A stretch of DNA of 64,000 bases from Escherichia coli. Lineage in GTDB: Bacteria; Pseudomonadota; Gammaproteobacteria; Enterobacterales; Enterobacteriaceae. Numbering within the stretch: position 1 is the first letter of the stretch; the number at the start of each line of letters is the position of its first letter. The DNA lies in assembly GCF_003018255.1 (NCBI RefSeq), contig NZ_CP027440.1; one strand, 5' to 3'. Below, piece by piece: positions 9,001-12,000 of the stretch. The position numbers are program-made.

Positions 9001-12000
9001 TATTCGTATGAGGAGAAGAAATGAATCTTAAAAATCTGCAACGTTATACTCCTGAGAAGTCGGATGTTCCGGGGGCAATGTACCTGAAGGCAGAGGATGG
9101 CCGTGACTGGTATGAAAGCCAGTCGTCATTTAAGGCGGATACGCTGAAGCTGGTTTATGACAGCGAAGGCATAATCACGAGTATCAGTAAGGATGTGTCG
9201 ATGCTGTGGCCAGTGGGACAGAGTGTGGTGGAGGTTGAGGATACAGAAGAAAACCGCAAAGCTGATATCTCCGGGCGCTGGAAGTTTGACGGGGAAAAAG
9301 TCGTTGATACTCTGACCGCGGAGAAAGCGCGCGGGATGAAGGGCGATGAAATAAACGCGTGGCGTAATGCGATGGAGGCGGCGAACTACACGTTTGAGCA
9401 CAATGGCCGGAAATGGGACTACGGAAAGTCAACGCAGACGCGTCTTGAGCCATCGGTGGCGGCAGCGAAAGCGGGGAAACTGCCGGAGGCGTTTTTCTGG
9501 ACGGATGCGGAAAACAATGATGTACAGGTGACAGCAGAAGAGCTTATTGCGCTGAGTGAAGCGGCAGAGCAGGCGATGTTCAGCAAAGGGATGGAAATCC
9601 ACATTCGCCAGCGCACCATGAAGAAGGACCTGGAATCGCTGAGCAGTGCGGATGAGATCCTGGTATACAGGGTTGGCTGGGCACAGGAATAACAGACAAA
9701 AAGATGGGGGACCATCACCTCCCCCATGAACTGCGTTGATTATGTCATTATTGTGAAGATATACACTATGCCGGGTAAATAGTGCCACGGAAAAGTTAAT
9801 TCCGGAAGTGACGGAACTCTCATTTTTCGTGCATCCTGTTGATATGGATGATTTTTCAGATTTTCGGAAGTCCGTATTTTTTCCCAGACATTTTGAAGCG
9901 TTTGCTTAATGAACGTATGTGCAGGCTCTTTATCTACGGCTCTTAAAATTGAGAGTCTATCATTGCTGGAGCCTGTGACAATTACGTCCAGGAAGAACTG
10001 CATAACCTGGATGATTTACGCTCAATCAGAGAGAGGGCGATTAGCGGCAATCACGCTTGATAAAATTAACCCCAGTGATCATCCGGGGTTTTGCAATCAT
10101 TAAAACCGCATCAACCGTTCTACCAGTTGTTCTTTACGGGCAACGATCCAGCCGTGTTGCTCCAGATAAAATTTAAACCGCTCCAGAGTGCATACCATCG
10201 CATCGGCGGGGACTTTTTCTGTGAACTCTACCTGACCGTGTTTATCAAAGTGGATCAGTAATGCGCATCCATCATTTGGGGTGGGGGAGTTTTGTGTTGC
10301 TGGTGGTTGTTTATGGCTGAAATAACAGTCTTCCAGTTTTTCGAACACTTCCCACGCCTGATCGGTTTCGAGCATTTTTGCATGGCGGGCAGCGCCACGT
10401 TCTGTCCAGAGGATAAGGGAGCGGGCATTTTTACCAACTAACCCGATTGTTTCGGGTCTGTTCTTAAACTCGCGTAATTCGTTTTTTTCAATTTTAAAGT
10501 AATGCTTTCCTACCACGAATCGCGTCGTGTTGTTCAGAAAGTTATCAGAAATGTTTTTGATTTTTGTTCCGTATAACTGCGCCAGAAGTTCAGTTGTAAT
10601 AACGGGGATCTGGTTGTGGGTGATTGCAGGAAGAGTGTCGACAGAAATTTGAGTGGTCATAACGATAACTCCGTACATTTGAAAATTATCGCCACCTTCA
10701 GGTTCCAATCATCATGGTGGCGAACTGTGCGGGGTTGGAACTACCGGGTACGGAAACCGGCGAGCCTTTCGGCTCCCCCACACAGCCCGCCATAAATCGC
10801 GAATGTGACTGTGCAAACGATATGAAAAAAGACGCGGGCGCGTCTCATATCGCTCCGTAAACATCCGGGGTTCCAATCCCGACGCCAGATTTTGCTGACG
10901 CGTTGGAAATATAGCCCCGGAGGATAAAAACTGTCAACGGGTAAAAAAATTTCCGTTATCAGGAATGTATAAAATTAAAGCAATCGAGCAAAAAAACTCT
11001 CTGCAAAACTAAAAAAGATCTCAATAAAATCAGGCAGTTAAAAACACGGAAAAACGGTATAAAAAAGCATCTCAAAATCCTGTTTTTTCTTTCAGATACA
11101 ATATGTTATTGCATTTTTTAAAACCTGCCAGTCTGGTACATGGATATTGATACCACTGCCAATTATAAACTGGGCGGTGCACAGCAACACGATAGCGTAC
11201 GCCTCGATCCGTGGGTGTTTATGTTCTCAGCAGGATATCGTTTTTAATTCCGCACAAAAATGACCCCGTAATTACGGGGTCAATAAGGACATGGTATAAA
11301 GGGTATTATTTCTTCGCTTCTACGCCATCAGTTTCAGAGCGAATTAAGAATTTCTCAGTTGTTTGCGGAATATGCTGAATTAGCCAGTCGGCCATGTGCT
11401 TTTCATCATTTAAAATCGCTTCGATAATCGGAATTGAGGCTGTATCACCGGCATTTTTTGCTGCTGCTAAGAGTGAGGTATAACAGGCGATTTCAAATTG
11501 CTCGAAGACATATCCGCTAATAGAGCCTTTGACTATTTCATCAGAAGGGAATATACCACCGATTGACTGCCCAAGTGCAGCCATTTTACTCATGGAATCT
11601 TTAATGACTGAACGTGAAATGTCATTACGATCAAGAATAGTTTCCAGTTGAACAATCTGGTTTTTGGTTTCACTAAGATGTTGTTCAATACGAGCGCGTA
11701 GTTCAGGATAATTATCTATACGACTGGCCATGGATTCAAGCATTGATTCGGCTTGCTTTTCCATTGCGTGGGCGTCACGTAACCAGTCATGATAATGTTC
11801 AATACGATTCATGAAAATGTCCTCTTTATAAAATGACTAAAAGTTAAAGTTCATATTTCAGGCTTTATTTTCGGCTTTCTTATTTACGTTATTAAGGGCC
11901 AGATCAGTCAATTTGATGTCGGTGGCCTTTTCTTCTTCCAGGGGCTCTTTCAGAAGCTTCGCTGCTTTACGATAACCTAATTGTTCAGCCAGCGTCGCTA

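What the first reader, a model, noticed from the sequence alone, without database searches (positions are those of the whole stretch)
9693..10660. Minus-strand accessory unit at the prophage end: ORF6N antirepressor-like gene plus a small unknown ORF
Opposite in orientation to the tail genes, an ORF6N-domain gene (10100-10660) and an 87-aa ORF (9740-10003) lie between a promoter region near the att site and a minus-strand terminator at about 9696-9727. The arrangement resembles an independently expressed moron, which could act in anti-repression or lysogenic conversion.
Basis: partly seen in the sequence, partly recalled or inferred. Interest (0 to 1): 0.4.

Follow-up and report, generated by a model that had tools for sequence, protein, structure and literature searches.

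The report
RNA-gated antirepressor cassette at prophage end

Summary
The window matches E. coli O43 RM10042 at 100% identity. The finding lies at the right end of a lambdoid prophage integrated in ompW, with the host junction at about 11122.

**ORF6N gene (10100-10660, minus): confirmed.**
- Pfam ORF6N, E 2e-20.
- 70% identical over its full length to Gifsy-1 AnrP.

- a sigma-70-like promoter (10937-10908);
- an IsrK-type sRNA with its own terminator (10901-10825; Rfam 72.7 bits);
- a C4-type antisense RNA (10797-10713; 78.9 bits).

The two C4 recognition segments are complementary to a site pair inside IsrK. They also match a second pair just before the gene, one of which overlaps its Shine-Dalgarno. 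This three-way match covaries across 51 related leaders (10 x 12 loop types).

The cassette therefore belongs to the P1 immI / Gifsy-1 isrK-anrP kind. It differs in three ways:
- it has no icd/orf45-type coupled leader ORF;
- its C-terminal domain comes from a Rha-type neighbour;
- a second cassette with different loop sequences sits in the prophage's early region.

**87-aa ORF: not a gene.** It reads across a recombination scar: antisense of a tail-fibre-assembly (DUF4376) gene fragment, then DinI residues 38-74, then a 108-nt deletion, then non-coding tail.

Verdict: new member of a known kind, modest interest.

The parts
10908..10937 (-). Promoter of the cassette: -35 TTGACA (10937-10932), 18-nt spacer, -10 TATATT (10913-10908). 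The transcript should start near 10901.
   Evidence: Consensus scan, 11 of 12 matches. The scan alone is weak: 2 sites found against 3.4 expected by chance. The hexamers align with the Gifsy-1 isrK promoter; the -10 is also conserved in the 42-leader alignment, which begins downstream of the -35. Deleting that promoter abolishes anrP transcription (PMC4825925). Coordinates.
10825..10901 (-). IsrK-type small RNA, which is also the 5' leader. Hairpin 1 is 10901-10882. Hairpin 2 (10881-10866) shows target b1 UUGGAAC (10876-10870) in its loop. Target a1 UACGGA (10859-10854) is single-stranded. The intrinsic terminator is 10846-10825.
   Evidence: Rfam isrK RF01394, 72.7 bits (gathering score 50), full length 1-77. 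It overlaps the c4-a1b1 RF03163 match at 44.6 bits, just below that family's 46.7. Terminator scan; fold; coordinates.
10713..10797 (-). C4-type antisense RNA, equivalent to Salmonella STnc1160. It has a long closing stem, a GAAA hairpin, and a second hairpin whose loop carries a' UCCGUAC (10754-10748). The single-stranded b' GUUCCAA (10741-10735) follows.
   Evidence: Rfam C4 RF01695, 78.9 bits (gathering score 45), full length 1-87. MFE -49 kcal/mol, z = -5.5, 0 of 200 shuffles fold as well. Stem covariation in 42 leaders: 94.2% of cells paired against 36-45% when partners are slid.
10669..10708 (-). Translation-initiation region with the second target pair: b2 UUGGAAC (10708-10702) and a2 GUACGGA (10676-10670). 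The a2 site overlaps the Shine-Dalgarno GGAG (10672-10669), 8 nt before the ATG at 10660.
   Evidence: Read directly from the sequence. Perfect complement to a' (7 nt) and to b' (7 nt). The match covaries across loop types.
10100..10660 (-). Antirepressor-like gene (186 aa). The ORF6N N-domain is residues 1-113 (about 10322-10660). A disordered linker spans 115-129. The small beta-beta-alpha-alpha C-domain is encoded at about 10103-10315.
   Evidence: Pfam ORF6N. PHROG 2379 anti-repressor, full length. 70% identity to Gifsy-1 AnrP/STM2616. The C-terminal 71 aa are 94% identical to the C-terminus of a Rha-family protein of strain EC958. AlphaFold model, pLDDT 78.9. PGAP names it WP_000211405.1.
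10068..10090 (.). Hairpin between the convergent ORF6N gene and the DUF4376 fragment. It is a likely two-way terminator, with a poor T-run on the minus strand.
   Evidence: Terminator scan. The same hairpin sits between the convergent DUF4376 and rha genes in EC958.
9990..10063 (+). Orphan 3' end of a DUF4376 (tail-fibre-assembly-like) gene, with its stop at 10061-10063. It is a recombination scar. The ATG of the 87-aa ORF (10003-10001) lies antisense inside it.
   Evidence: 93.6% identity to the 3' ends of DUF4376 genes in many genomes. Alignment with EC958.
9881..9991 (-). DinI-like gene fragment. Codons 5-41 of the 87-aa ORF correspond to residues 38-74 of an intact 82-aa DinI-like protein.
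   Evidence: 74-77% nucleotide identity to annotated DinI-like genes. Alignment A2. BLASTP 65% identity over 37 aa, E 7e-17. The intact relative is Pfam DinI, E 4.8e-17. PHROG 189 DinI, E 0.011, for the fragment.
9740..10003 (-). The 87-aa ORF of the finding. It is a chance reading frame across three joined pieces: antisense DUF4376 fragment, DinI fragment, then non-coding or YkgJ-pseudogene tail. Relative to an intact relative, a 108-nt deletion has removed the last 8 DinI codons and the stop.
   Evidence: RefSeq gives no CDS here. GenBank once called it hypothetical I3W_08795. The only A/G-rich stretch upstream (AGG) ends 2 nt before the ATG, too close for a ribosome-binding site (sequence).
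9694..9727 (-). Minus-strand intrinsic terminator: stem 9727-9704, then CTTTTTGTCT. It was inherited together with the DinI-YkgJ' segment.
   Evidence: Terminator scan. Conserved in strain 2011C-3911 downstream of its DinI-like gene.
10981..11247 (+). Phage att arm shared by prophages at this site (about 10981-11121), then the host ompW 3' fragment (11122-11247). The attR junction is at about 11122.
   Evidence: Genomes with an intact ompW match only from 11122. Prophage-bearing genomes match from about 10981-10999. PGAP annotates an ompW pseudogene fragment.

Best explanation
The ORF6N gene is the effector of a complete, self-contained antirepressor cassette controlled by antisense RNA. It is of the same kind as the P1/P7 immI operon (c4-icd-ant) and is an orthologue of the Gifsy-1 isrK-STnc1160/orf45-anrP locus. 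Here it sits at the far right end of an ompW-integrated lambdoid prophage.

**Proposed working**
1. An unregulated sigma-70 promoter (10937-10908) fires in the lysogen.
2. Most transcripts stop at the terminator 10846-10825. This gives a ~77-nt IsrK-like sRNA that displays sites b1 and a1.
3. Read-through transcripts carry the C4-like RNA (10797-10713). It may be excised, as in P1.
4. The C4 loop a' and single-stranded b' pair with b2 and a2 in front of the gene. Because a2 overlaps the Shine-Dalgarno, translation of the ORF6N protein is blocked.
5. IsrK carries the same two sites and competes for a' and b'. The IsrK:C4 balance therefore sets whether the protein is made.
6. Once made, the protein switches on lytic genes of this prophage or a co-resident one, most likely by inactivating a repressor, and so triggers induction.

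**What is shown and what is inferred**
- Shown here: the parts, their order, their complementarity and its covariation.
- Shown for the Gifsy-1 orthologue: promoter activity, expression in lysogens, the b1-b' pairing tested by compensatory mutations, IsrK-dependent translation, and induction by AnrP.
- Inferred: steps 3 to 6 for this locus, and the direction of each RNA's effect.

The 87-aa ORF plays no part. It is the remnant of the DinI-like gene that sits downstream of this cassette in relatives.
For: **RNA elements**
- Rfam C4 78.9 bits and isrK 72.7 bits, both full length and above their gathering scores. They lie on the same strand, between the promoter and the gene.
- The leader is 82% identical to the Gifsy-1 isrK-anrP leader over 360 nt.
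- C4 folds with z = -5.5.

**Matched recognition sites**
- Here the sites are a' UCCGUAC and b' GUUCCAA, with b1 and b2 UUGGAAC, a1 UACGGA and a2 GUACGGA.
- Gifsy-1 and the second module of this prophage use different loop sequences. In each, all three copies are changed in step.
- In 51 unique related leaders from IMG/VR there are 10 a' types and 12 b' types in 18 combinations. Forty have at least 6 nt of perfect complement at all four sites, and all 51 at three or more.
- The summed complementarity is 484, against 336 +/- 13 in 20,000 permutations; none reached the observed value.
- Formal count of the b1-b' helix on 42 leaders: 7 pairs, 5 with changes on both sides, 98.5% of cells paired.

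**Protein**
- Pfam ORF6N and PHROG 2379 anti-repressor over the full length.
- 70% identity to AnrP.

**Experiments on the orthologue (PMC4825925)**
- The isrK promoter drives anrP transcription, but the mRNA is translationally silent.
- IsrK supplied in trans raises translation by more than 100-fold.
- G28A/G31A lie in what I call b1, and C162U/C159U in b'. Each raises basal translation; combining the complementary pairs restores the wild-type RNA conformation and lowers basal translation again, though not back to the wild-type level (Table 1D).
- AnrP expression raises antQ mRNA and induces Gifsy-1.
- IsrK and STnc1160 are highly transcribed in lysogens under all 17 conditions examined (bioRxiv 10.1101/787010).

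**The 87-aa ORF as a DinI remnant**
-.
- An intact DinI-like gene lies directly downstream of the ORF6N gene at the same att site in strain F1022.
Against: - No experiment exists for this locus. Promoter activity, RNA processing and the protein's target are all inferred.
- The leader ORF (orf45) that couples translation to anrP in Gifsy-1 is not conserved. Here the same ATG opens a 31-codon frame that stops 38 nt before the gene, so the Gifsy-1 mechanism cannot apply unchanged.
- The P1 model (C4 represses, upstream sites titrate it) and the Gifsy-1 model (cis b1-b' pairing locks the mRNA, trans IsrK opens it) assign different signs to some steps. I cannot decide between them here.
- Crude duplex energies favour cognate pairs only moderately and not in every comparison.
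- The covariation counts are over related sequences, not independent events.
- The prophage carries a frameshifted lysozyme gene and so may be defective.
Confidence: 0.72

Rival explanations
1. First reader's view. The locus is a two-gene moron (ORF6N gene plus the 87-aa gene) expressed on its own in the lysogen, acting in lysogenic conversion or in unregulated anti-repression.
For: An own promoter-like site and minus-strand terminators, in the opposite orientation to the tail genes and at the prophage end. Orthologous RNAs are transcribed in lysogens.
Against: The gene is preceded by two dedicated regulatory RNAs whose target overlaps its Shine-Dalgarno. The orthologous mRNA is translationally silent unless IsrK is raised. 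The 87-aa ORF is a chimeric DinI fragment with no Pfam hit and no RefSeq annotation. A hairpin and a foreign plus-strand gene fragment separate the two ORFs.
Confidence: 0.07
2. Same RNA-gated cassette, but the ORF6N protein is a DNA-binding transcription factor. It would act directly on phage promoters, for example the early or Q operon, rather than bind and inactivate a repressor.
Confidence: 0.2
3. The cassette is a stranded relic. It was brought to the prophage end by recombination, and it no longer controls anything in a defective prophage.
For: The surroundings are visibly scarred: an orphan DUF4376 3' end, a truncated dinI and a chimeric protein. The lysozyme gene is frameshifted. A second, canonically placed cassette exists in the early region.
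Against: Every element is intact and mutually matched: promoter hexamers, both RNAs at full Rfam length, all four target sites and the open 186-codon frame. The exact protein sequence occurs on 1000 or more contigs. The same cassette lies at this att site in other strains.
Confidence: 0.1
4. The main role is superinfection immunity rather than induction. C4 RNA made constantly by the prophage would block antirepressor synthesis of incoming phages that carry the same a'/b' type, as P1 immI does.
For: Layout and RNA family are the same as P1/P7, where c4 underlies heteroimmunity (review PMC12197685). There are many loop types, and the two modules within one prophage differ at both loops. C4/STnc1160 is abundant in lysogens.
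Against: This does not exclude the best explanation, since it is the other face of the same circuit. In Gifsy-1 the locus was shown to promote induction. Immunity was not tested there or here.
Confidence: 0.3

Closest known systems
Gifsy-1 isrK-orf45(STnc1160)-anrP-isrJ locus of Salmonella Typhimurium (Hershko-Shalev et al. 2016, PMC4825925)
   Same: - The leader is orthologous: 82% identity over 360 nt.
- Both have the IsrK sRNA with its terminator, then the C4-like RNA, then the ORF6N protein (70% identity).
- The b1-b' pairing I infer is the paper's helix b-I, which was tested there by compensatory mutations.
   Different: - The a' and b' sequences differ, and so do all four targets.
- orf45, whose stop overlaps the anrP start, is replaced by a 31-codon frame ending 38 nt upstream.
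- There is no isrJ homologue downstream (no Rfam hit at E <= 1).
- The cassette is at the attR end, next to the tail-fibre genes. In Gifsy-1 it lies just downstream of the Q antiterminator gene.
- The C-terminal domain is only about 30% identical to AnrP's (my count from the alignment). It is shared instead with a Rha-family protein.
P1/P7 immI operon (c4 antisense RNA-icd-ant1/ant2; Citron & Schuster 1990, 1992, cited from my own knowledge and from the reference lists seen)
   Same: - The RNA belongs to the same Rfam family (C4, RF01695).
- One promoter drives the upstream a1/b1 sites, then c4, then the a2/b2 sites at the ribosome-binding site of the downstream reading frame, then the antirepressor.
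- Specificity is set by a few loop bases, which is the basis of P1/P7 heteroimmunity.
   Different: - There is no icd-like gene, so the a2 site sits on the Shine-Dalgarno of the antirepressor gene itself.
- The host element is an integrated lambdoid prophage, not a plasmid prophage.
- No repressor operator was found at the promoter.
- The upstream a1/b1 segment ends in its own terminator and so forms a separate sRNA.
- Homology of the protein to P1 Ant1/2 was not tested.
Ant modules of Stx-converting and related lambdoid phages (for example phi24B, Min27, JLK-2012, Stx2a_F451)
   Same: About 85% nucleotide identity over window 10314-10919. This covers the leader RNAs plus the ORF6N N-domain. 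The second module of this same prophage occupies the equivalent early-region slot.
   Different: Those genes carry other C-terminal domains, such as the P22AR C-terminal domain. They lie in the early or nin region, not at the prophage end.
Rha-ash module at the right end of ompW-site prophages (for example E. coli ST131 EC958)
   Same: Same att site and same slot, convergent with a DUF4376 gene across the same hairpin. The C-terminal 71 residues are 94% identical.
   Different: The N-terminal domain is Phage_pRha (PF09669), not ORF6N. An ash-family gene lies upstream instead of the IsrK and C4 RNAs.
P22 immI (sar antisense RNA-ant) and the P4 CI RNA with seqA/seqC
   Same: In both, a small phage RNA holds back an antirepressor or lytic genes by pairing with the leader. 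P4 has target copies both upstream and downstream of the RNA gene, as noted by the Gifsy-1 authors (review).
   Different: These are unrelated RNAs. sar is a true cis-antisense transcript. P4 CI acts through transcription termination.

Membership tests
Pfam ORF6N (PF10543) | Significant match to the family HMM | tested here: met
   E 2.3e-20, residues 13-96, model positions 4-86 of 86.
AnrP-type ORF6N anti-repressors (PHROG 2379) | Full-length similarity: both domains and a length of about 186 aa | tested here: met
   PHROG 2379, E 3.6e-94, residues 1-186 against 1-187 of 187. 70% identity to Gifsy-1 AnrP over 185 aa. 4576 relatives at E <= 1e-5.
AnrP-type ORF6N anti-repressors (PHROG 2379) | Expression induces the prophage or inactivates its repressor | not testable with these tools
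   Shown only for Gifsy-1 AnrP. The C-terminal domain differs here.
Rfam C4 antisense RNA (RF01695) | Covariance-model score above the gathering threshold over the whole model | tested here: met
   78.9 bits against 45, model positions 1-87 of 87. Stable fold, z = -5.5. Stem covariation.
Rfam C4 antisense RNA (RF01695) | Two exposed segments (a', b') complementary to site pairs both upstream (a1/b1) and downstream (a2/b2, at a ribosome-binding site) | tested here: met
   6-7 nt perfect complements at all four sites. The a2 site overlaps the SD. The pattern covaries across 51 leaders; 0 of 20,000 permutations reach the observed value.
Rfam C4 antisense RNA (RF01695) | Processed from a longer precursor (by RNase P in P1) | not testable with these tools
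   A conserved CCACC 3' end is visible. Processing itself needs RNA end mapping.
Rfam isrK (RF01394) | Score above the gathering threshold, with an intrinsic terminator | tested here: met
   72.7 bits against 50, model positions 1-77 of 77. Terminator 10846-10825. Hfq binding was not tested.
P1-type immI operon | Small icd-like ORF between c4 and ant, translationally coupled to ant | tested here: not met
   No such ORF. The only frame that ends in the ATGA overlap is a 12-codon GTG frame with no usable SD.
P1-type immI operon | Promoter controlled by the phage's main repressor | tested here: inconclusive
   No k-mer of 9 or more is shared with the cI-cro intergenic region, no palindrome was found, and there is no LexA box at the promoter. 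The operators of this repressor are unknown.
Gifsy-1 isrK locus | orf45 with its stop codon overlapping the anrP start (AUGA coupling) | tested here: not met
   The Gifsy-1 45-codon frame was recovered. In the window the same ATG gives 31 codons ending at 10698, 38 nt before the ATG. In the early module it gives 14 codons.
Gifsy-1 isrK locus | isrJ sRNA downstream of anrP, and the locus just downstream of antQ | tested here: not met
   No isrJ match at E <= 1 in 9000-11400. The Q gene lies about 40 kb away.
DinI (PF06183), for the 87-aa ORF | Match to the family HMM over the whole ~80-aa fold | tested here: not met
   No Pfam hit at E <= 10. Only residues 5-41 align, to residues 38-74 of an intact DinI-like protein that does match PF06183 at E 4.8e-17. 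The N-terminal 37 and C-terminal 8 residues are missing.
Moron | Own promoter and terminator, expressed from the repressed prophage | tested here: inconclusive
   Promoter-like and terminator-like sites are present. The orthologous RNAs are expressed in lysogens. The orthologous protein, however, is not translated in the basal state.
Moron | Cargo function that is not part of the phage's own regulation or life cycle | tested here: not met
   The homologous cassette controls prophage induction. Its RNA family is a phage immunity element.

The most novel reading that the evidence does not exclude
The two recognition segments of these C4-type RNAs may form a combinatorial two-part address: 10 a' types x 12 b' types, freely re-assorted, with all three copies of each site kept matched. 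This would let several antirepressor circuits run side by side without cross-talk in polylysogens.

RM10042's prophage carries two such circuits with different addresses and different C-terminal (target) domains. The right-end copy has its C-domain from a Rha-type protein. It would then be a retargeted, SOS-independent trigger aimed at a different repressor, possibly that of another prophage, so that one RNA-gated input could induce a neighbour.
Probability: 0.25. Interest if true: 0.55.

Novelty: new member of a known kind. Interest (0 to 1): 0.33.

Why it matters
For annotation, RefSeq labels this locus only 'ORF6N domain-containing protein'. It lists neither RNA, so the regulatory logic is invisible. 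The old GenBank record carried a false gene for the 87-aa ORF.

For biology, cassettes of this kind give prophages an induction route gated by small RNAs rather than by RecA/LexA. In Salmonella the orthologue promotes spontaneous induction and can kill the host through AntQ (PMC4825925).

This locus shows that the cassette moves as a unit. It can land at the tail end of a prophage, it exchanges its C-terminal domain with Rha-type proteins, and it coexists with a second copy of different RNA specificity. That pattern bears on how co-resident prophages, including Stx phages that carry near-identical leaders, avoid or exploit cross-induction. None of this overturns current understanding.

Tried and rejected
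2. **Search with the C-terminal 73 aa alone**. It returned 17 proteins, mostly partial or short entries. It shows only that the domain occurs with both Rha and ORF6N labels.
3. **NCBIfam.** No meaningful hit for either protein.
4. **Repressor or LexA control of the promoter.** No shared operator-like words, palindromes or SOS box were found.
5. **RNAduplex energies as a test of orthogonality.** Cognate pairs are usually but not always best, because flanking stem bases add noise. I relied on exact-complement counts and covariation instead.
6. **Formal pair counting for a1-a', a2-a' and b2-b'.** I dropped this because MAFFT puts loops of different types out of register. Only b1-b' and the internal stems were counted.
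7. **Direct repeat between the orphan DUF4376 3' fragment and the current tfa 3' end.** None was found.
8. **Primary P1 papers** (PMC312442, PMC196329). They are not held, so P1 details rest on reviews and my own knowledge.
9. **isrJ-like RNA as the explanation for the 87-aa region.** No Rfam hit.
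Full report
**Where this is**

The window matches Escherichia coli O43 str. RM10042 (NZ_CP028122.1) at 100% identity over the region searched; window position 1 is record position 1443412.

The finding lies at the right end of a ~50-kb lambdoid prophage. On the plus strand are the tail gene J (3463-7200), a collagen-like tail-fibre gene (7684-8952) and a DUF4376 tail-fibre-assembly-like gene (9021-9692). After the finding come a 126-nt ompW 3' fragment (11122-11247), then yciE, yciF, yciG and trpA/B.

Genomes with an intact ompW match the window only from 11122 onward. Other prophage-bearing genomes match from about 10981. The attR junction is therefore at about 11122, and about 10981-11121 is the shared phage att arm.

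**Checking the observation**

The ORF6N gene is real.
- It starts at the ATG at 10660 and stops at 10100-10102, giving 186 aa.
- It matches Pfam ORF6N with E 2.3e-20.
- It matches PHROG 2379 'anti-repressor' end to end, E 3.6e-94.
- PGAP annotates it as WP_000211405.1.
- The exact protein occurs on at least 1000 contigs, and 4576 relatives exist at E <= 1e-5.

The 87-aa ORF (9740-10003) exists as an open frame. So do the minus-strand terminator hairpin (9727-9704) and a promoter-like site near att (10937-10908).

An 87-codon frame is not remarkable here. Spurious frames of 89-119 aa lie antisense to the adjacent tail gene.

Between the promoter and the ORF6N gene, on the same strand, Rfam finds two full-length RNAs above their curated thresholds.
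- isrK (RF01394): 10901-10825, 72.7 bits against a gathering score of 50.
- C4 antisense RNA (RF01695): 10797-10713, 78.9 bits against 45.
- The 'a1, b1 targets of C4' model (RF03163) also matches, overlapping isrK, at 44.6 bits. That is just under its threshold of 46.7.

C4 folds into a long closing stem, a GAAA hairpin, a second hairpin with a 9-nt loop and an 8-nt single-stranded stretch. The MFE is -49 kcal/mol, z = -5.5, and 0 of 200 shuffles fold as well. The IsrK fold on its own is not exceptional (z = -0.4).

**Homology to a studied locus**

The 360 nt from the promoter into the gene are 82% identical to the Gifsy-1 isrK-anrP leader. The protein is 70% identical to AnrP (STM2616) over its full length. 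By my count from the alignment, identity is about 97% over residues 1-117 and about 30% in the C-terminal part.

Hershko-Shalev et al. (PMC4825925) showed the following for that locus.
- The isrK promoter drives anrP transcription.
- Most transcripts end as the IsrK sRNA.
- The read-through mRNA is translationally silent.
- IsrK supplied in trans activates translation by more than 100-fold.
- A stable processed RNA, STnc1160, arises downstream of IsrK.
- AnrP raises antQ-operon mRNA and induces Gifsy-1.

IsrK and STnc1160 are highly transcribed in lysogens under all 17 conditions examined (bioRxiv 10.1101/787010).

**The recognition sites**

In the window (coordinates):
- C4 exposes a' UCCGUAC (10754-10748, hairpin loop) and b' GUUCCAA (10741-10735, single-stranded).
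- IsrK carries b1 UUGGAAC (10876-10870, hairpin loop) and a1 UACGGA (10859-10854).
- In front of the gene lie b2 UUGGAAC (10708-10702) and a2 GUACGGA (10676-10670).
- The a2 site overlaps the Shine-Dalgarno GGAG (10672-10669), 8 nt before the ATG.

Gifsy-1 has different a' and b' sequences (CGGUGAU and ACGCCAA), and its four targets are changed to match. The paper's mutations G28A/G31A and C162U/C159U fall in what I call b1 and b'. Each raises basal anrP translation; the complementary pairs restore the wild-type RNA conformation and lower basal translation again, though not back to wild type. The b1-b' pairing therefore has direct experimental support in the orthologue.

**Wider covariation**

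I scanned IMG/VR for the conserved first C4 hairpin and obtained 120 loci.
- Of 66 unique leaders, 51 could be parsed.
- They hold 10 a' types and 12 b' types in 18 combinations.
- Forty have at least 6 nt of perfect complement at all four target sites. All 51 do at three or more.
- Cognate complementarity averages 6.6-7.0 nt, against 4.3-4.5 nt for non-cognate pairs.
- The summed score is 484, against 336 +/- 13 in permutations; 0 of 20,000 reach it.

On a 42-leader alignment, the b1-b' helix has 7 pairs, 5 of them with changes on both sides, and 98.5% of cells are paired. The whole structure is 94.2% paired, against 36-45% when partners are slid by 1-3 columns.

The order along the DNA is b1-a1-a'-b'-b2-a2. 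The a and b types assort independently, yet each type stays matched in all three places. Simple single crossovers cannot produce this pattern. It points to selection on the pairings.

Caveats:
- The sequences are related.
- The scan required one hairpin to be conserved.
- Counts are of sequences, not of events.

**How it most likely works**

The architecture is that of P1/P7 immI. There, C4 RNA is cut out of the operon transcript and pairs with a2/b2 at a ribosome-binding site to block antirepressor synthesis. Loop differences there underlie heteroimmunity (review PMC12197685; primary papers cited from my own knowledge).

My reading for this locus:
1. An unregulated promoter fires in the lysogen.
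2. IsrK and C4 are both made.
3. C4 occludes the Shine-Dalgarno through a'-a2, helped by b'-b2.
4. IsrK, which carries the same sites, competes for C4.
5. When the balance tips, the ORF6N protein is made and switches on lytic genes.

Steps 3 to 5 are inferred. The Gifsy-1 authors explain their data differently, with cis b1-b' pairing locking the mRNA and trans IsrK opening it. I cannot discriminate between the two models from sequence.

**Differences from both models**
- Gifsy-1 orf45 has its stop overlapping the anrP ATG and is needed for coupling. It is not conserved here. The same ATG gives a 31-codon frame that ends at 10698, 38 nt upstream. In the prophage's other module it gives 14 codons.
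- No icd-like gene is present.
- No isrJ homologue lies downstream.
- I found no LexA box or repressor-operator-like element at the promoter.

**Mosaic origin**
- The leader and the N-domain (10314-10919) are about 85% identical to the ant regions of Stx-converting phages.
- The C-terminal 71 residues are 94% identical to the C-terminus of a Rha-family protein (Phage_pRha N-domain). That protein occupies the same slot at the same att site in ST131 strain EC958 and in many other genomes.

Whether the protein binds a repressor or binds DNA remains open.

**A second module in the same prophage**

The early region of the prophage, outside the window, holds another cassette.
- isrK at L007 5122-5196, C4 at 5222-5306, and the ORF6N gene at 5361-5912.
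- Its protein is 44% identical to the right-end one.
- Its loops differ: a' UUGGUUGAU and b' GUCUCAA, each matching its own four targets.

On sequence grounds the two circuits should not cross-react. This is not tested.

**The 87-aa ORF**

It reads through three unrelated pieces.
- *10003-9991:* antisense to an orphan 3' end of a DUF4376 gene (9990-10063, plus strand). That fragment is 93.6% identical to such gene ends elsewhere.
- *9991-9881:* corresponds to residues 38-74 of intact DinI-like proteins. BLASTP gives 65% identity and E 7e-17. The intact relative matches Pfam DinI at E 4.8e-17.
- *Below 9881:* relative to strain 2011C-3911, a 108-nt deletion has removed the last 8 DinI codons and the stop. 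The frame then runs into a non-coding or YkgJ-pseudogene tail until 9740.

Supporting points:
- It has no Pfam hit at E <= 10 and only a marginal PHROG DinI hit, E 0.011.
- It has no usable ribosome-binding site.
- RefSeq dropped the old GenBank 'hypothetical I3W_08795'.
- In strain F1022 an intact DinI-like gene lies directly downstream of the ORF6N gene at the same att site. The remnant marks what used to be there.

The terminator at 9727-9704 came with that DinI segment.

**Verdict**

The ORF6N call is right, while 'moron' and 'second gene' are not.

The locus is a new member of a known kind: a C4/IsrK-gated antirepressor cassette. It shows modest variations in position at attR, in the swapped C-domain, in the lack of a coupled leader ORF, and in having a paralogous module with a different RNA address. 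Interest is modest.

The most novel reading still open is that the two-segment RNA address is a combinatorial code that keeps multiple antirepressor circuits orthogonal in polylysogens.

Noticed in passing
L007 5122-5912 (NZ_CP028122.1 1409621-1410411), outside the window: A second isrK-C4-ORF6N cassette lies in the early region of the same prophage. Its a' and b' sequences differ and each matches its own targets. A sok/hokD toxin-antitoxin pair follows it.
   Followed up: yes
IMG/VR loci L008-L127: The C4 loop types re-assort combinatorially: 10 a' types x 12 b' types in 18 combinations, with all target copies kept matched. L011 and L012 are two viral contigs of one genome, and they carry the reciprocal combination of RM10042's two modules.
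   Followed up: partly
window 7399-7539 (+): A Hok/Gef-family 46-aa toxin gene lies just downstream of tail gene J (PGAP annotation). No sok-type antisense RNA was found there by Rfam at gathering threshold.
   Followed up: no
window 7684-8952 (+): The tail-fibre gene has a long collagen-like Gly-X-Y region.
   Followed up: no
window about 1-363 (+); L007 38112-39275: An OmpC-like porin gene is embedded among the prophage tail genes, between the tape-measure and minor-tail genes. It may be a lysogenic-conversion or receptor-masking cargo.
   Followed up: no
L007 13546-16496, outside the window: Five copies of the sRNA family STnc100 (RF02076, 120-172 bits) lie downstream of the prophage Q and tRNA region.
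   Followed up: no
L128 2373-3560 (strain F1022): At the same ompW att site, an intact DinI-like gene lies directly downstream of an ORF6N gene on the same strand. The tail-fibre genes there are different (YadA-like). This suggests the ancestral layout of the slot.
   Followed up: partly
window 9693-9880: The segment downstream of the DinI remnant is 92-98% identical to sequence that PGAP calls a YkgJ-family cysteine-cluster pseudogene fragment in other strains. This is another piece of the mosaic.
   Followed up: partly
window 19556-19649 (-) and 33589-33791 (+): The trp operon leader (RF00513) and the sRNA STnc180 (RF02079) are ordinary chromosomal features.
   Followed up: no
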